A DNA stretch of 64,000 bases from a virus, in IMG/VR virus record IMGVR_UViG_3300050120_000169, positions 16,088 to 80,087 of that record; one strand, given 5' to 3'. The notes under the pieces are model-generated. The model saw only the letters and a program-made list of their open reading frames with translations. It was not told the origin of the DNA and did not search any database. Shown here piece after piece: positions 26,438 through 47,702 of the stretch (its first letter is position 1; each line of letters opens with the position of its first letter). The position numbers and the translations under genes were made by a program.

Positions 26438-26884
26438 ATGGCGGTGAACCGTTACAGTCACCCTGTACACGGCATGAAGGGAACGCCGACTTATCAATCA
26501 TGGGAATCCATGAAGCGGCGTTGCAAAGACCCGAAGAAGAAATATGTTCAGCGCGGGATTAAAGTTTGCGAGCGCTGGGAAAGTTTTCTGAATTTTTTGG
26601 CAGATATGGGGATTAGGCCAGAAGGCACGACCTTAGAACGCCAAAATAATGATAAAGGTTATGCGCCTGGAAATTGTATATGGGCCACCATGAAAGAGCA
26701 GTCAAGAAACAAAACTTCAAATGTTTTCTTGACGTTTGACAATGAAACTCTATGTACAGCCGACTGGGCTAGAAAAACTGGTATCAGCCATAAGGTGATT
26801 CGGGAACGAGTCAACCGAGGCTGGTCCGTAGAAGATGCACTAACAATTAAGCCCGTAGTCGGAGCAAATAGTCATGGCTGTTAA
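26438..26884 (+). mobile_element. HNH homing endonuclease
   Basis: HGMKGTPTYQSWESMKRRC...RGIKVCERW...TLER.NNDKGYAPGNCIWAT. Confidence 0.85.
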
Positions 26885-28169
26885 TCTCGGTCTTCGGGCG
26901 ATTCGTCGCCTCTGCGAACAACAGGAAACATACGAGTGGTATAAGTCAAAACTGAGTCCGTTGTTGTTTAAACCGAACGAACAGCCAGTTTTTAAGTGGG
27001 TTGACGATTTCGTACGGACTCACCACGCACTACCTCAAATCGATACGTTGGTGAAATACTTCCCCGCCGTGGCTGATGTCCCGGCGACCGAAGTAGCTAG
27101 TTATTACGTGGACTTGCTGGAGAACGATTACTGCTTTTCGAAAATCGTGCAGTGTGGTCAGGATAGTGCCAACCTACTGAAAGAGAATAATGCGGCCTGG
27201 AAGCCAGCCGCCGAGATCCTGCGGCGAACGCTTAACGACATTTCCCGCCAGCAGTATCGGGAAAAGATTATGGATTTCGGAGCCGAGGCCAATAGTTTGT
27301 TGACCAAGACCTATTACGGCTTGGAGAAAGTGCCGAATATCAGCGGTTTTGGCTGGCCGTACATGGATGAAATGGGTGGGGCGATGCCCGGGGACGTGGT
27401 GAGCTTCATTGGACGCCCACAAATGGGTAAGTCTTGGCTCACGTTGTACACCGCGCTACATAACTGGCGAGTGCGCAAGCACAGTGTGTTGTTCGTCAGC
27501 ATGGAAATGAGTCACTTGCCAATCGCCCAACGTGCGGCGACGATGATTGCCCACACGAATTTGACGCAGTTAAAGCACGGGCACCATTCGGACAAGGGTT
27601 ATTCGACGCAGACCGAGAAGCTGTTTTTCTCCAGTATGGAGACGATCACCAGTCCAGTCGAAGACGGTGGCGCACGGTTGTACATTGTTGACGGTAACCT
27701 AGCAGCGGACATGGAGGACATCTTCTCCCTGGCTGATCAATTGGGATGTCAGACGGTGATTATTGACGGCGCTTATCTTTGCCGCCACAAAAACGGACGC
27801 CTGGACCGATTCACACGAGCGGCTGAAAACTGCGAAAGCATGAAGCGCTACAGCAATGACCTGATGCTCGCCAGCTTTGCTAGTTGGCAGTTCAACCGGC
27901 AGGCGGCGGATAAGCAGAAGAAAAAAGGCGGCACGGCTGAAATTGGGTTGGAAGACATCGGGTACTCGGATGCCATTCCCCAGATCAGTAGTATCGTGCT
28001 GGGGCTATTCCAAGAAGACGGGGTGGAGACTATGACCAAGAAAAACATCCGGGTCATGAAAGGCCGGGGTGGCGAGGTAGGTGAGTTCGACATTGGGTGG
28101 GATTTCAACACTATGAATTTTGATCAAATCGGGATTAAGACCGAGGATTTTCAAAATATTTATATTTGA
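26874..28169 (+). CDS. replicative DNA helicase (DnaB/SF4)
   Basis: GRPQMGKS, FVSMEM, IIDG, QFNR and KGRGG motifs. Confidence 0.85.
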   Translation: MAVNLGLRAIRRLCEQQETYEWYKSKLSPLLFKPNEQPVFKWVDDFVRTHHALPQIDTLVKYFPAVADVPATEVASYYVDLLENDYCFSKIVQCGQDSANLLKENNAAWKPAAEILRRTLNDISRQQYREKIMDFGAEANSLLTKTYYGLEKVPNISGFGWPYMDEMGGAMPGDVVSFIGRPQMGKSWLTLYTALHNWRVRKHSVLFVSMEMSHLPIAQRAATMIAHTNLTQLKHGHHSDKGYSTQTEKLFFSSMETITSPVEDGGARLYIVDGNLAADMEDIFSLADQLGCQTVIIDGAYLCRHKNGRLDRFTRAAENCESMKRYSNDLMLASFASWQFNRQAADKQKKKGGTAEIGLEDIGYSDAIPQISSIVLGLFQEDGVETMTKKNIRVMKGRGGEVGEFDIGWDFNTMNFDQIGIKTEDFQNIYI

Positions 28170-28193
28170 CAAATATCGAATTCGGCTTATAAT
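28166..28193 (+). promoter_or_regulatory. sigma70-like promoter
   Basis: Perfect TTGACA-N16-TATAAT. Confidence 0.8.
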
Positions 28194-28385
28194 GCAATCT
28201 GGTTGGGTGGCGGATTGCGCCGGAACCCCCAGGCGGCTGGGTGTCTCCCGTGCGATTTGCCGCTCGACCGCCTTAACAAGTGCGGTTAAGCGGATAGGTT
28301 GTTTGATCATGCCCACCTGGGGGATGCCCAGGGGTTGTATGGCTGGCAGGCTGTCTACTTAACCGCATTTCAACCTCAATGGAGT
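28194..28385 (+). promoter_or_regulatory. structured 5' leader with two mutually exclusive folds
   Basis: CCCCCAGG/CCTGGGGG pairing versus AAGTGCGGTTAAG/CTTAACCGCATTT pairing. Confidence 0.5.
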
Positions 28386-28389
28386 GACT

Positions 28390-29187
28390 ATGACCGTATT
28401 ACATGAATTACTTGCAGCAGAAAAGACGGTGACCAGTGCGCGTGACCGCCTCACCGAAGACACAGACAACAAGTTCGGCAAGCAGGAATCCTTCTTTACC
28501 GGGGGCACCAAAACCCTCGAAATGTTGGGTGACGATCAAGCCAATAAGTCCATCGAAGCCGCAGCGCGGGCCGACAAGGAACTGGCAACCACTGTGGTAG
28601 CGACACTTGACTACTACCTGACGTATTGGGCCAAGGCCGAGACGTTACTGGCGCAAAAGAACCTGACCAATACCCGGGCACTGGCTGACCTCGAATTTCG
28701 CGGCACCACGATTGCCAACGATGTACCGGTTGACGAACTGATGGGCCTGGAAGTGCGGCTGACGGATTTTCGTAAGCTGGCTTTGCGGATCCCCACGCTC
28801 GATGCCAGCCGGGAATGGCAGTACGATACGAGTGCCGAGCAACAGGGCACCTATCGGGCGGTCAAGCCTACTGTTACGACCAAAACCGAGAAGGTGGAAG
28901 TACCGGTTATTCTGGTGCAACCGACCAAGGAACACCCGGCACAGGTCAAGATCAGTAGCGCGGACAAGGTGGTGGGCACGTTCACGACCCAGCATACCAG
29001 CGGCGCTATTGCGGCGATTCAGAAGGCCAATTTGCTGGCGGTGATCGATGATCTGATCATTTCTGTCAAGGCCGCCCGGGTGCGTGCTAACTCGGTAGAA
29101 GTCAGCAAGGTCCCGGGTTTGGGCGAAACGATCAAAACACTGTTGATGGAGCCGTTGAAGGCGGCCCCGATCAACAATGCGGTATAA
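28390..29187 (+). CDS. unknown helical protein encoded directly upstream of the large structured RNA
   Basis: 265 aa; CAATGGAGTG RBS; own promoter; stop codon 5 nt before the RNA's closing helix. Confidence 0.8.
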   Translation: MTVLHELLAAEKTVTSARDRLTEDTDNKFGKQESFFTGGTKTLEMLGDDQANKSIEAAARADKELATTVVATLDYYLTYWAKAETLLAQKNLTNTRALADLEFRGTTIANDVPVDELMGLEVRLTDFRKLALRIPTLDASREWQYDTSAEQQGTYRAVKPTVTTKTEKVEVPVILVQPTKEHPAQVKISSADKVVGTFTTQHTSGAIAAIQKANLLAVIDDLIISVKAARVRANSVEVSKVPGLGETIKTLLMEPLKAAPINNAV

Positions 29188-29192
29188 ACAGT

Positions 29193-30151
29193 AAGTGCGA
29201 AACAGGTAGCGTTATCGTTATAGTTGGCGTCGGGTTAGGTTGGTTCGAATCCAACCCGTCCCGCCAAGTTTTCCGCAATTAACTGCGGAGGATTTCACGG
29301 GACGGTGGCCGAGTGGATACAGGCCCACATGCGAATGTGGAAAGACCCAGTTTATGATTTTCGTATCACCTGTCAGCATTGTCTTATGCAACAGCGGCAA
29401 AAGTAGTCCGGCAAGCAGCTTCGCGCACCCCTGATAAGAGCGCGAAGCATAAGTCAAGGTCATCGGTTCGAACCCGGTCGCCTCCTCCTGAGTAACTTGT
29501 AAAACTATGAATGCTAAGCAGTACATTCTTGACCGGAGTTTGGAAATAGGGGATTGCTGGATATGGCAGCAATCTACGGATAAGAATGGTTACGGTTGTG
29601 CCTGTTTTAATGGTGTGTATTTAGGCGCTCACCGGCTTTCATTCATGGCTTTTGTTGGGGAAATACCTTCTGGTATAAAAGTGTTACATACTTGCGATAT
29701 TCCTTCTTGTGTGCGACCACAACATCTATTTCTTGGAAGTCATCAAGACAACATGGATGATATGGTTAAAAAAGGGAGGTCTGCCAAGGGTGTGCATATG
29801 AATACTGGAAGTGCGCACGGTTCAGCGGTTTTGACGGAAGACCAAGTTTTACTAATTCGCAAACTTTGTGAAGAAGGTAGGTCACAAAATTCAGTGGAAA
29901 GAGAATTTGGATTGTCCAAAGGACTAGTGAATAAAATAGTGCGTAGAAAACTATGGACCCACATATAGGTTACTGAGCGGAGGCGTAGCTCAGCGGTAGA
30001 GCATTGGCTAATTGAGTTATCGTAACTGGCTTGGATGTGATGAAAAACGCAGTTGGGTGAAAGCCGAAGTCCCCAGCAGGAGTCGGGCATGACAAATGCG
30101 CGGGGGCTTTCTAACTGGCCTTGGACACAGGACCGGGCAGAAAGCGCACTT
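29193..30151 (+). ncRNA. large structured RNA with two circularly permuted tRNA-like domains
   Basis: Closing helix AAGTGCG 29193-29199 / CGCACTT 30145-30151; permuted domains at 29232-29348 and 29452-30009. Confidence 0.7.
29507..29968 (+). mobile_element. HNH homing endonuclease embedded in the RNA linker
   Basis: CWIW...GYG...AHRLS...VLHTCD.PSCVRPQHLFLGSHQDNMDD plus a C-terminal HTH. Confidence 0.9.
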
Positions 30152-30164
30152 CAATGGAGTGACC

Positions 30165-30347
30165 GTGATTGATACCACACAAACCCCGTATTACAAGGGT
30201 TACAAAGCCTTCCTAGATTACAACCGGGGCGATACCCCCATGCCTGACAACCCATTTGTAGAAGGTAGCAATGATTACGGGCGGTGGGTTGATGGGTATG
30301 GCGATGCTCTTGGCGACTGGGAAGCCTGGATGGAAAGCGATATTTAG
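30165..30347 (+). CDS. small hypothetical protein
   Basis: GGAG RBS; YYKGY...NPF...WVDGY pattern. Confidence 0.5.
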   Translation: MIDTTQTPYYKGYKAFLDYNRGDTPMPDNPFVEGSNDYGRWVDGYGDALGDWEAWMESDI

Positions 30348-30356
30348 GAGCAGCAC

Positions 30357-31193
30357 ATGGCATTGAATTTTGTTGGTGGTAAGCCGGTAAAAGTGGATAA
30401 GAAGATTATCCCTGTTGAAGAAATAAAAACCCCCGCTCCCCCTCCTTCGGGGGACTTCAAGTATTCGGATAAAGAACTGGCCGCGTTCCTGCTTGAGCAA
30501 GCACAGCAAATCAAGGCTGCGACTGCTGTACCGGGTTCGTTGTTGACCGCACAAGAACCGGAAAAGATACCGATCTACGTCAATGTTACGCATACAGTGG
30601 CCCCCGCCCCCTCGATTTTTGGATCATCGGGCATTCTAAACAACGAATTGTATGCCCAAGGCGTCACGCCACCCCCCGGGACGGTATTGGCCGATGGCAC
30701 GACCACGTACTTGAGTAAGCTGCAAATCCCCGTTTCGGAATTAACGGTCGAGGACCAAGTAAAGCTTTCTCAGGACCAAGAACCGCAGTCAATTGCGGTG
30801 GAACAGGCGCACTCGGAAGTGCTGACGTTGGTAGACGAGTACACCGAACTGCAAGCGGAAATCGATGCCGTTGACATTTCTGCCCAGTTGAAAGCCCAGG
30901 AAACGATCAAAAAGCGGCTGGCGCAGATTGCCAAATCCGATAATTACCCGTCGAATAAACCCGTACAGCTATGCGGCACGCATGGCAACTACGTGGAGTT
31001 CAGCGCGGCGGCCAACTCGGTGAAGATCACCGACAAGGCGGGTATGGCGATGTATCTCGGTGCGCCAGTGTGGATTGAGCACACCGAAATGACGCTGGCC
31101 GAAGCCAAGAAGATCCTCAGCGAAAACGAACTTGCCAAGTACACGTCTAACGTCCCGGGTAGTCGGACGCTCAAAACCGTTTATAAGGGGTAG
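30357..31193 (+). CDS. hypothetical protein
   Basis: 278 aa; AGGAG RBS. Confidence 0.65.
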   Translation: MALNFVGGKPVKVDKKIIPVEEIKTPAPPPSGDFKYSDKELAAFLLEQAQQIKAATAVPGSLLTAQEPEKIPIYVNVTHTVAPAPSIFGSSGILNNELYAQGVTPPPGTVLADGTTTYLSKLQIPVSELTVEDQVKLSQDQEPQSIAVEQAHSEVLTLVDEYTELQAEIDAVDISAQLKAQETIKKRLAQIAKSDNYPSNKPVQLCGTHGNYVEFSAAANSVKITDKAGMAMYLGAPVWIEHTEMTLAEAKKILSENELAKYTSNVPGSRTLKTVYKG

Positions 31194-45885: not shown

Positions 45886-46737
45886 ATGGATGCGCTGGAA
45901 AAGACCAAAGCCCTAGGCCGTGTTTTTCTGCCGGTGGAAGCGCTTGAGCCAAATAAAGATAACCCAAACACGATGTCGGACGCAGAATTTAATATGTTGT
46001 CCGATAACATCGAGAAGACTGGGATTACCGATCCAATTTTTGTTCGGCTTATTTCGCCAGGACAGTACCGTATTGTCGGTGGACACCACCGCTGGGAAGT
46101 GGCAAAGCTCCTGGGGTTTGTTGAAGTCCCATGCACTGTGATCGATGATCCCGAGTTCGATGATGATGCAGAAAAGTATCAAATGGTGCGTATGAACGTG
46201 ATTCGAGGTCGCATGACCCCGGATAAGTTCCTTAAGTTGTACAACAGTCTCAATAAGAAGCATGGGGCTGAAATCATGGCCGAGGCCTTCGGTTTTGTTG
46301 ACGAAGAACAGTTCAAGAAGCTCACCAAGCAGATGAGCGCTACCTTACCACCGGAACTCCAAGGGGATTTTGAGAAGGCGGCCAAAGAAATCAAGACTAT
46401 CGACGGCCTCTCTAAACTACTTAACGGGATGTTCAGTAAATATGGTAATACTCTCGACTATAACTTTATGTTGCTAGATTATGGCGGGAGAGATAGTGTG
46501 TGGATTCGTATGGCAGCTTCTGAAAAGAAAAAGCTGGTGTCCTTAGGGTATAAATGTGTAGATGGGTCGGTTAGTTTGGATTCTGTGTTGAATGGGTTGA
46601 TTGACTTTTCTTTATCAGACAAAGGTAGCCAGATATTGGCTCAATTGATAAAAGAAGGGAAGAAAGTTACACTTTCGGATGGGATTGAATTACCCACTCT
46701 GGAGAATTTAGATGAGCACCCTAAAGGGCACTATTAG
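45886..46737 (+). CDS. ParB/Srx N-terminal domain protein
   Basis: LEPNKDNPN, GITDPIFV and IVGGHHRW motifs. Confidence 0.8.
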   Translation: MDALEKTKALGRVFLPVEALEPNKDNPNTMSDAEFNMLSDNIEKTGITDPIFVRLISPGQYRIVGGHHRWEVAKLLGFVEVPCTVIDDPEFDDDAEKYQMVRMNVIRGRMTPDKFLKLYNSLNKKHGAEIMAEAFGFVDEEQFKKLTKQMSATLPPELQGDFEKAAKEIKTIDGLSKLLNGMFSKYGNTLDYNFMLLDYGGRDSVWIRMAASEKKKLVSLGYKCVDGSVSLDSVLNGLIDFSLSDKGSQILAQLIKEGKKVTLSDGIELPTLENLDEHPKGHY

Positions 46738-47233
46738 AAAAGCTGGGAAGAAAGTAAGGGATTGGTTAGGTGATATTAAAGCTGTGCAATTGATTGCGGA
46801 AGGGTGCGGTGAATGTATGCCCTATACTGGTCGAGTAGATAAAAACGGGTATGGTAGATGCCCCTGGGAAGGGGTTGGAAATACTTTAACGCATCGGTTA
46901 GCCTATGCAGTGGCTCATGACTTATCACTAACAGATATCGAGGGTGTAGTGGTTCGACACACTTGTGATAACCCTCCGTGTTGTAACCCTAATCATTTAG
47001 TTGTCGGGACACACGGGGATAATTGCAAAGATAAAATTATTCGCGGAAGACTTCCGGTTGGAGAAGACGCAGGTCCGTCTAAATTGACCGAAGCCCAAGT
47101 TAGAGAAATTAAAACTAGATTATTGGGCGGAGAACGTGGCAAAGTGTTAGCAAAAGAGTTTGGCGTCCACGTGATGACGATTAGTGATATCAAGCGTGGG
47201 GCCACATGGAGGCATGTAAATGTCCAAGTTTAA
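46712..47233 (+). mobile_element. HNH homing endonuclease
   Basis: GYG...THRLAY...VRHTCDNPPCCNPNHL..GT...N plus an HTH. Confidence 0.85.
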
Positions 47234-47702
47234 GCGTATCGAAGAACTGCCTGCCACAGTGCTATTGGATGTGCGGGCGGGTATATACGAGCCGATAATC
47301 CTGGCCCAGTACTTGCAAAAGCAGGGGTATTTTACTGACGTAGCCGAGGCTACCTTGACCCAATTAGTTGGGGCTTATCGCAAAAGTTTGAAGATCCCCG
47401 AGGGGACTTCCGAAGACTCGGTGCCTGACGAGTTCAACCCCCTGGCAGAAATCCTGGCAGTAGCCAAACAGCAGAAAGAACGCGTCCGGCTGGCAGTGTC
47501 TAAAGAAAAAGAAATCAATATGCCGCTCGACGCCACGAACAAGGTGATTCAAGAGTACCAGCAGACATTAGCGCTCATGCAGAAGATGCAGATCGAACGT
47601 GATTTGGCAGATACTAAGGTAAAACTACCAGCGGGATCCAATAATGTGACGGCTCGTATCAAAGATATGATGCGCTGGGCGAACACGCAAGACCGAGAGT
47701 AA
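47220..47702 (+). CDS. helical protein, possibly terminase small subunit-like
   Basis: HTH-like N-terminus and coiled coil; adjacent to ParB (weak evidence). Confidence 0.3.
   Translation: MSKFKRIEELPATVLLDVRAGIYEPIILAQYLQKQGYFTDVAEATLTQLVGAYRKSLKIPEGTSEDSVPDEFNPLAEILAVAKQQKERVRLAVSKEKEINMPLDATNKVIQEYQQTLALMQKMQIERDLADTKVKLPAGSNNVTARIKDMMRWANTQDRE

What the first reader, a model, noticed from the sequence alone, without database searches (positions are those of the whole stretch)
29486..29978. HNH homing endonuclease sits exactly in the linker of permuted domain 2
SEEN: the 153-aa HNH ORF (29507-29968) lies between the acceptor 3' and 5' strands and is bracketed by a stem (AGTAACT 29491-29497 / GGTTACT 29968-29974). 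Both tRNA halves remain perfectly complementary across ~490 nt. The equivalent linker in domain 1 holds a copy of the genome-wide palindrome. INFERENCE: the linker is a neutral, looped-out or excised position, which independently supports the permuted fold. If RNase P and 3' nucleases cut it out, tRNA processing would release the HNH mRNA, mimicking an intron without splicing.
Basis: partly seen in the sequence, partly recalled or inferred. Interest (0 to 1): 0.75.

Follow-up and report, generated by a model that had tools for sequence, protein, structure and literature searches.

The report
Homing endonuclease gene nested inside tRNA-mimic RNA
A phage non-coding RNA built from two circularly permuted tRNA look-alikes carries a mobile HNH endonuclease gene exactly in the dispensable hairpin that closes the second look-alike's acceptor stem, and a 97%-identical wild relative has a 27-base hairpin there instead.

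Summary
The 153-aa ORF at 29507-29968 is an HNH_3 endonuclease. It fills the 493-nt linker (29486-29978) between the 3' acceptor strand (29479-85) and the 5' acceptor strand (29979-85) of a permuted tRNA-like domain, and is bracketed by the AGTAACT/GGTTACT stem.

A 31.8-kb contig from another metagenome, about 97% identical, joins 29488 directly to 29979 through 24 other bases. That gives a 27-nt hairpin linker that encodes a full TCCA end.

About 90 non-redundant permuted domains lie downstream of DUF7873 genes in other phage contigs. Their linkers are 6-101 nt, none holds an ORF, and their acceptor stems covary.

The host RNA is an undescribed tandem tRNA mimic. Its connectivity (T arm, closed acceptor stem, D arm) matches bacterial Y RNA YrlA, but it scores below Rfam's threshold and this genome has no Ro60 gene.

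Best reading: a free-standing homing-endonuclease cassette replaced the apical part of a hypervariable, peripheral hairpin. Excision of the linker by RNase P and 3' trimming, which would release the HNH mRNA, is plausible but untested. It rests on the M. smegmatis YrlA precedent, on NCCA enrichment and on the allele boundaries.

The scan had noted this stretch before, in this genome only.

The parts
28166..28193 (+). Consensus sigma-70-type promoter (TTGACA-16-TATAAT, 12/12) upstream of the DUF7873 gene. No terminator-like site lies between it and the RNA.
28384..29187 (+). DUF7873 gene, the conserved upstream neighbour of the tRNA-mimic RNA. Function unknown.
   Evidence: Pfam PF25283, E 2e-59. 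Syntenic with permuted domains in 29 IMG/VR loci and 58 of 80 metagenome loci. No informative fold match.
29232..29348 (+). Permuted tRNA-like domain 1: closing helix GGGTT/GACCC, T arm 29239-55, 3' acceptor strand 29256-62, GCCA 29263-66, linker hairpin 29267-98 (palindrome copy 29272-89), 5' acceptor strand 29299-305, D arm 29308-24, GCGA-capped hairpin 29325-40.
   Evidence: weak beta_tmRNA (permuted) match
29418..29448 (+). 9-bp hairpin between the two domains. The X5 allele carries two compensatory double changes in it (29420/29446 and 29421/29445).
29453..29488 (+). Domain 2, 3' half: anticodon-stem 3' strand GTCAA 29453-57, variable loop GGTC, T arm 29462-78, 3' acceptor strand CGCCTCC 29479-85, then TCC 29486-88.
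29489..29978 (+). Allele-specific cassette (490 nt) that stands in place of 24 nt in the HNH-less allele. It holds the bracket stem 29491-97/29968-74 and the HNH ORF. GC is 41-43%, against 52-58% in the flanks.
29507..29968 (+). HNH_3 endonuclease ORF (153 aa) with an HTH-like C-terminal tail. No Shine-Dalgarno motif is visible upstream.
29979..30008 (+). Domain 2, 5' half: 5' acceptor strand GGAGGCG 29979-85, D arm 29988-30002, anticodon-stem 5' strand TTGGC 30004-08.
30009..30095 (+). 3' flank of the RNA, predicted to pair with 29384-29416 and so close domain 2. The equivalent long-range helix covaries in relatives.

Best explanation
A free-standing HNH_3 homing-endonuclease gene cassette has replaced the apical part of the hairpin that closes the acceptor stem of domain 2. 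Domain 2 belongs to a conserved phage non-coding RNA made of two tandem circularly permuted tRNA mimics, each ordered T arm, 3' acceptor strand, linker, 5' acceptor strand, D arm (YrlA-like connectivity). The site tolerates 490 foreign bases because the linker is the one hypervariable, peripheral element of the fold. The tRNA-like body still forms across it through the 7-bp acceptor stem, the roughly 9-bp stem that the cassette carries, the 5-bp anticodon-stem equivalent and the D/T-loop contacts. The replacement itself is shown, as are conservation and covariation of the fold and the foreign composition of the cassette. Three steps are inferred. The locus is probably transcribed from the promoter at 28166 together with the DUF7873 gene. 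RNase P probably cuts before G29979, and 3' trimming with CCA repair probably ends the other strand at U-C-C(-A). That would leave a multi-piece tRNA mimic and free a fragment carrying the HNH mRNA. The enzyme probably spreads by cutting HNH-less alleles.
For: (1) HNH-less allele: a 31.8-kb contig in run X5 differs at 14 of 589 and 16 of 413 flanking positions. It joins 29488 to 29979 through 24 other bases, which gives a 27-nt linker that folds as a hairpin and encodes TCCA. A second, more divergent HNH-less contig in X3 joins 29488 to 29985 through 29 bases. (2) HNH+ junctions are seen in runs from separate studies (X3, X4). (3) Family: 38 of 57 T arms downstream of DUF7873 have a 7-bp partner within 130 nt, against 4.1% for shuffled controls. 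These carry 32 distinct acceptor sequences. A further 55 non-redundant domains come from metagenome loci; apart from two spurious long-range matches their linkers are 6-79 nt, and none holds an ORF. (4) RNAalifold on 7 relatives: 48 of 74 pairs have compensatory changes, covering both T arms, both acceptor stems, both linker hairpins and a helix closing domain 2. (5) Close strains keep the domain-2 pairs. In X5, 29454 T>C and 29455 C>T swap G-U and G-C pairs. An X4 loose end shows D-stem G-C changed to A-U and 30007 G>A. (6) Un-permuting the two halves in silico gives a sequence that ARAGORN calls a complete tRNA at every junction tried. (7) The ORF is HNH_3, its GC is 41-43% against 52-58% in the flanks, and its nearest homologue is only 46% identical. 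(8) Homing-endonuclease-type ORFs sit beside the same RNA in L006 (NUMOD3) and L003. HNH_3 homologues lie in tRNA arrays in L077 and L081. (9) For processing: the allele boundary sits at N73-CC and at +1, 14 of 38 domains have NCCA, and M. smegmatis YrlA gives a precedent.
Against: There are no RNA data, so transcription, processing, HNH translation and RNA function are all untested. The HNH start has no visible Shine-Dalgarno motif, unlike neighbouring genes. The cassette is a replacement rather than a clean insertion, because the two alleles share no linker sequence beyond TCC; the route of entry is therefore unclear. No close HNH relative was found at a second site, so mobility is inferred from family membership and composition only. 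In several relatives the linker hairpin continues the acceptor helix without a break, which is not an ideal RNase P substrate. The insertion could be recent enough that an inactivated domain 2 has not yet decayed.
Confidence: 0.7

Rival explanations
1. The HNH insertion has functionally split or killed domain 2. The paired halves persist only because the event is recent, and the phage gets by on domain 1 alone or without this RNA.
For: Many relatives carry a single permuted domain (L009, L012, L013, L016, L019-L021, L023, L024, L026), so one domain may be enough. The low GC of the cassette suggests recent arrival. No expression data exist.
Against: HNH+ contigs occur in several runs, including a slightly diverged strain (X4). 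Both halves are unchanged in T arm, acceptor stem and D arm, and the few changes seen in close strains keep the pairs. The cassette brings its own ~9-bp stem, which holds the halves together.
Confidence: 0.15
2. Domain 2 is a true permuted tRNA gene. The transcript would be circularised or ligated at the anticodon loop and then opened at the acceptor ends, giving a decoding tRNA (possibly Met/CAU), with the HNH segment removed as the intervening sequence. This is how the permuted tRNAs of Cyanidioschyzon merolae are made.
For: The un-permuted halves pass ARAGORN as a tRNA, and one junction gives anticodon CAT. In L161 an ordinary tRNA-Met(CAT) sits at the same place, directly after DUF7873. 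NCCA ends are enriched.
Against: The open ends of the anticodon stem run on into long covarying helices rather than a 7-nt loop. The anticodon called depends entirely on the junction chosen. The genome has no RtcB ligase, and bacteria have no known bulge-helix-bulge endonuclease (general knowledge).
Confidence: 0.05
3. The 490-nt segment is a self-splicing intron (group I or II) that carries its own endonuclease.
For: Endonuclease ORFs looped out of structured RNA in tRNA genes are typical of group I introns (general knowledge).
Against: Only 18 nt before and 10 nt after the ORF are non-coding within the cassette, which leaves no room for a ribozyme core. No intron family matched at E up to 10.
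Confidence: 0.02
4. The element is a two-piece (permuted) tmRNA, with the HNH gene in its intervening segment.
For: The permuted part of Rfam beta_tmRNA gives weak matches to domain 1 of the window (13.7 bits) and to both domains of L005 (24.5 bits).
Against: ARAGORN finds no tmRNA. All scores are far below the gathering score of 84 bits. There is no G3-U70 pair (G3-C70 in domain 1, A3-U70 in domain 2). No tag frame or pseudoknots were recognised. The D arms are full tRNA-type D arms.
Confidence: 0.03

Closest known systems
Bacterial/phage Y RNA YrlA (Rfam RF02553; Chen et al. 2014, PMC4201824)
   Same: Same connectivity: T arm, acceptor-like stem closed by a loop, D arm, with the RNA ends in place of the anticodon or variable arm. 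The tRNA-type T and D loops are canonical. M. smegmatis YrlA, with a 7-bp stem, is cut by RNase P and receives CCA. The YrlA model gives sub-threshold full-length matches to relatives' domains (L027 38.8 bits, L017 29.7, L022 28.9). Some relatives encode Ro60.
   Different: There is no Ro60/TROVE gene in this complete genome, and no YrlA match in the window even at E 10. Scores are below the gathering score of 69 bits. There are two tandem domains in one RNA of roughly 400 nt. The RNA is syntenic with DUF7873, not with Ro60. In G002 a separate classical YrlA-like module lies next to the Ro60 gene. The Ro-binding motif GNCGAAN0-1G was not found by eye.
Free-standing homing endonucleases in phage tRNA gene regions (T4 SegB; T5 HNH nickases) - from general knowledge
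   Same: An intron-less endonuclease gene sits among tRNA-type genes, whose conserved sequences would serve as likely targets. HNH_3 homologues of this ORF lie in tRNA arrays in L077 and L081.
   Different: Here the gene is nested inside a single RNA gene, between the two acceptor strands of one domain, rather than between genes.
Endonuclease ORFs in peripheral loops of group I introns
   Same: A mobile ORF is looped out of a structured RNA at a position that does not disturb the fold, bracketed by a stem.
   Different: There is no ribozyme and no splicing. Removal, if any, would be by host tRNA-processing enzymes.
Two-piece (permuted) tmRNA genes
   Same: The 3' tRNA-like part with CCA lies upstream of the 5' part. 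The intervening segment is excised and the pieces stay paired.
   Different: No tag frame, no alanine identity pair, full D arms, and no ARAGORN or Rfam call.
Permuted tRNA genes of Cyanidioschyzon merolae
   Same: The 3' half lies upstream of the 5' half, and a linker joins the acceptor ends.
   Different: Those mature through a circular intermediate into decoding tRNAs. Here the anticodon-side ends continue into long helices.

Membership tests
HNH_3 endonuclease (Pfam PF13392) | Profile match above the curated cut-off | tested here: met
   46.4 bits against 24.8, E 3e-12, residues 40-83; PHROG HNH families score up to E 1e-29.
Homing endonuclease (mobile, free-standing) | Presence/absence polymorphism at one site between otherwise near-identical genomes | tested here: met
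   The X5 contig, ~97% identical, lacks the 490 nt and has 24 other bases there.
Homing endonuclease (mobile, free-standing) | Cleavage of the endonuclease-less allele near the insertion site | not testable with these tools
   Needs purified protein and DNA of the HNH-less allele.
YrlA / bacterial Y RNA | tRNA-like domain in the order T arm, closed acceptor stem, D arm | tested here: met
   the YrlA model aligns over T arm, acceptor stem and D arm of L027.
YrlA / bacterial Y RNA | Rfam RF02553 gathering score (69 bits) | tested here: not met
   No match in the window at E up to 10. Relatives score at most 38.8 bits at the DUF7873-linked domains.
YrlA / bacterial Y RNA | Encoded next to a Ro60 (TROVE) gene and bound by Ro60 | tested here: not met
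   No TROVE gene in the complete 80-kb genome. TROVE is present in 3 (strong) to 5 of 15 related contigs, but 5-10 kb away from the RNA. Binding is not testable.
Two-piece tmRNA | G3-U70 alanine identity pair, tag reading frame, pseudoknots | tested here: not met
   G3-C70 and A3-U70. ARAGORN finds no tmRNA. beta_tmRNA scores 13.7 bits against a gathering score of 84.
Group I/II intron | Ribozyme core flanking or enclosing the ORF | tested here: not met
   Only 18 + 10 non-coding nt within the cassette; no intron family at E up to 10.
Decoding tRNA (permuted gene) | 7-nt anticodon loop closed by the anticodon stem | tested here: not met
   The anticodon-stem strands 30004-08 and 29453-57 continue into other helices. 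Domain 1 has a GCGA tetraloop hairpin instead.
RNase P substrate | 12-bp acceptor/T-stem stack, T loop, and N73-CC(A) after the 3' strand | tested here: met
   7 + 5 bp, T loop TTCGAAC, UCC in the window and UCCA in the HNH-less alleles. Actual cleavage is not testable here.

The most novel reading that the evidence does not exclude
Host tRNA-processing enzymes act as the 'splicing' machinery for an intron-less mobile gene. RNase P would cut before G29979, and 3' trimming plus the CCA-adding enzyme would finish the UCC end. This would release a roughly 490-nt HNH mRNA and leave a multi-piece, CCA-ended tRNA mimic that is possibly aminoacylatable. It would mean that the acceptor-closing linkers of this large, undescribed family of phage tandem tRNA mimics are excised intervening sequences that can carry cargo: an HNH gene in domain 2 and a DNA palindrome in domain 1.
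Probability: 0.3. Interest if true: 0.8.

Novelty: new variant of a known kind. Interest (0 to 1): 0.62.

Why it matters
The case is a natural insertion experiment on an uncharacterised, widespread phage RNA. DUF7873 genes, which flank this RNA, gave 549 hits in metagenome contigs. The polymorphism shows which part of the fold is dispensable and confirms the long-range acceptor pairing. It also suggests a third way for a homing endonuclease gene to live inside an RNA gene, besides introns and intergenic spacers: inside a loop that tRNA-processing enzymes may remove. Finally, it supplies matched HNH+ and HNH- alleles. These make RNase P cleavage, homing specificity and the function of the tRNA mimic (Ro60 partner, decoy for tRNA-targeting enzymes, or other) directly testable.

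Tried and rejected
- blastn of 29150-30150 against the GenBank phage collection: no match.
- Exact-pattern scans of IMG/VR for the domain-2 halves: none.
- The closest relative, L001 (93% aa identity in DUF7873), is cut by the contig end inside domain 1. The rest is not elsewhere in that record.
- Downstream protein 30357-31190 has no relatives in IMG/VR.
- Rfam: no family reaches its gathering score in the locus, and there is no intron, YrlA or tRNA match in the window's RNA at E up to 10.
- ARAGORN sees only the four ordinary tRNAs at 58 kb.
- Tandem identical tRNAs as the source of the T-arm/D-arm pairs were rejected. There is no 5' half upstream of domain 1 and no matching 3' half downstream.
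- No RNA holder was listed among the sequencing runs.
- DUF7873 gave nothing informative: no PHROG family, no PDB sequence match, and no structural match beyond generic helical bundles (AlphaFold pLDDT 82).
- TROVE, RtcB and CCA-adding-enzyme genes are absent from this genome.
- None of 67 HNH_3 homologue loci has the gene inside a permuted linker.
- None of 55 further metagenome domains has an ORF-bearing linker. The 502-nt candidate in L161 is an ordinary tRNA-Met plus a chance complement.
- The other endonuclease-like ORF at 26438-26884 is unrelated to this HNH.
- The first structure job failed and was resent.

Full report
**What is in the sequence.** The window is part of an 80,087-bp IMG/VR phage record that CheckV rates complete. 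Between the DUF7873 gene (28384-29187) and the next protein genes lies a stretch of about 900 nt. Its only long ORF is the 153-aa frame at 29507-29968.

That ORF is an HNH_3 endonuclease. Pfam gives 46.4 bits against a cut-off of 24.8, with an HTH-like tail, and PHROG HNH families score up to E 1e-29.

Upstream of the ORF lie a tRNA-type T arm (29462-78) and the strand CGCCTCC (29479-85). Downstream lies its exact complement GGAGGCG (29979-85), followed immediately by a textbook D arm (29988-30002).

This stem extends to about 9 pairs. It forms, together with all 7 acceptor pairs, in the minimum-free-energy fold of the whole 913-nt stretch with the ORF included.

Domain 1 (29232-29348) has the same permuted order, with a 32-nt linker hairpin after GCCA. 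That linker contains a copy of a palindrome whose pattern matches about 9 sites in the window against 0.04 expected. All coordinates and statements in the observation hold.

**The decisive test: HNH-less alleles.** Sequencing runs that hold this DNA were found and their contigs were laid on 28900-30400.

- Run X5 (watershed metagenome) has a 31.8-kb contig that differs at only 14 of 589 and 16 of 413 flanking positions. It joins 29488 directly to 29979 through 24 unrelated bases.
- The resulting linker is 27 nt, folds as a hairpin on top of the acceptor stem and reads TCCA after the 3' strand.
- A shorter, more divergent contig in X3 joins 29488 to 29985 through 29 bases. Its linker also begins with A after TCC.
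- HNH+ junctions are spanned by contigs in X3 and X4, so the arrangement is not an assembly artefact and circulates in more than one sample.

The polymorphic block is bounded by N73-C-C on one side and by base +1 of the 5' acceptor strand on the other. Those are the ends a mature tRNA would have. The two alleles share no linker sequence, so the event is a cassette replacement and not a clean insertion.

The ORF region has 41-43% GC against 52-58% around it. Its nearest homologue among 5.8 billion proteins is 46% identical.

**The host RNA is a conserved family.** DUF7873 homologues in IMG/VR (29 loci) are almost always followed by one or two domains with the same order: T arm, 7-nt strand, short linker, complementary 7-nt strand, D arm.

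- Without selecting on pairing, 38 of 57 non-redundant T arms in the 1.3 kb downstream have a 7-bp partner within 130 nt, against 4.1% for shuffled 7-mers.
- These domains have 32 different acceptor sequences, and 14 of 38 are followed by NCCA.
- A metagenome scan found 549 DUF7873 relatives. Of the 80 fetched, 58 carry such domains, giving 55 further non-redundant ones. Their linkers are 6-79 nt once two spurious long-range matches are set aside.
- RNAalifold on seven relatives predicts both T arms, both acceptor stems with their linker hairpins, the D arms and a long-range helix closing domain 2. Of 74 pairs, 48 show compensatory changes.
- The anticodon-stem equivalent of domain 2 covaries: tcaca/tgtga, ccaca/tgtgg, tccc/ggga, tcct/agga, aattcg/cgaatt, and ttggc/gtcaa in the window.
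- Close strains change G-U to G-C or A-U in this stem, and one changes a D-stem G-C to A-U.
- Joining the two halves of domain 2 in silico gives a sequence that ARAGORN calls a tRNA at every junction tried.

The fold is therefore real, and the window's copy is intact across the 493-nt linker. In about 93 surveyed domains no other linker carries an ORF, so this insertion is a rare, derived state.

**What the RNA resembles.** No Rfam family reaches its threshold. The best sub-threshold matches are YrlA (L027 38.8 bits, L017 29.7, L022 28.9, each full-length over the model; gathering score 69) and the permuted part of beta-proteobacterial tmRNA.

YrlA has the same connectivity. M. smegmatis YrlA, with a 7-bp stem, is cut by RNase P and gets CCA added in vivo (PMC4201824).

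This genome has no TROVE/Ro60 gene. Three related contigs have a clear one and two a weak one, out of 15 checked, always 5-10 kb from the RNA. One of them also has a classical YrlA-like module right next to its Ro60 gene.

I therefore treat the DUF7873-linked RNA as a new tandem tRNA mimic that works like YrlA in architecture. It is not shown to be a member of that family.

tmRNA membership fails: no G3-U70 pair, no tag frame, no ARAGORN call. A group I or II intron is excluded by lack of space and lack of any match. A decoding permuted tRNA is unlikely, because the anticodon-side ends run into long covarying helices and the genome has no RtcB.

DUF7873 itself remains of unknown function.

**How it most likely works.**

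- Shown: a foreign HNH cassette occupies the hypervariable acceptor-closing hairpin, and the tRNA-like body is conserved around it.
- Inferred, fairly safely: the position is tolerated because it is peripheral, and the cassette's own stem keeps the halves together.
- Inferred, less safely: a perfect sigma-70 promoter at 28166-93, with no terminator before the RNA, drives one transcript. RNase P and 3' trimming then remove the linker and free the HNH message. The ORF has no visible Shine-Dalgarno motif, which fits the low expression usual for such genes but is also a weakness of the idea.

Endonuclease-type ORFs beside the same RNA in L006 (NUMOD3) and L003, and HNH_3 homologues in tRNA arrays, suggest that tRNA-like loci are recurrent landing sites.

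**Verdict.** The case is a new variant of known kinds, namely a free-standing homing endonuclease and a YrlA-like tRNA mimic. It has good experimental handles because matched HNH+ and HNH- alleles exist.

The scan had already noted this stretch in this genome. I found no record of it on other DNA.

Noticed in passing
window 29210-29222, 29355-29366, 30016-30024; L003, L005, L007, L010 equivalents: A GTTATCGT / GTTAYYGT motif recurs 4-5 times in the predicted single-stranded parts of the tandem RNA, both in the window and in relatives. It may be a protein-binding site.
   Followed up: no
L006:4722-5300 (-); L003:4966-5298 (-): Extra ORFs lie between DUF7873 and domain 1 in relatives. The L006 ORF has NUMOD3 motifs and looks like a GIY-YIG-type homing endonuclease, so the RNA locus is a repeated landing site.
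   Followed up: partly
L099 minus strand 811-870 (G002, next to the TROVE gene at 46683-47363): A classical YrlA-like module (T arm, 7-bp stem closed by TTCG, D arm) lies beside a Ro60 gene in a relative. The same relative also has the DUF7873-linked tandem RNA about 9 kb away.
   Followed up: partly
L066:2472-2560: A permuted tRNA-like domain whose 5' piece resembles a tmRNA 5' end lies directly after an HNH_3 homologue. It may be a two-piece tmRNA next to a homing endonuclease.
   Followed up: no
L161:974-1049: An ordinary tRNA-Met(CAT) follows DUF7873 where other phages have the permuted domain. This hints that the mimic arose from a tRNA gene at this site.
   Followed up: partly
window 28166-28193: A perfect 12/12 sigma-70 consensus promoter lies upstream of the DUF7873 gene.
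   Followed up: no
window 46805-47218: A second HNH_3 paralogue (35% identity) sits between protein genes. It is preceded by a variant of the genome-wide palindrome at about 46786-46800.
   Followed up: partly
window 29418-29448: This 9-bp hairpin, with a 13-nt loop containing CTGATAA, has no equivalent in the more distant relatives examined. The X5 strain carries two compensatory double changes in it.
   Followed up: partly
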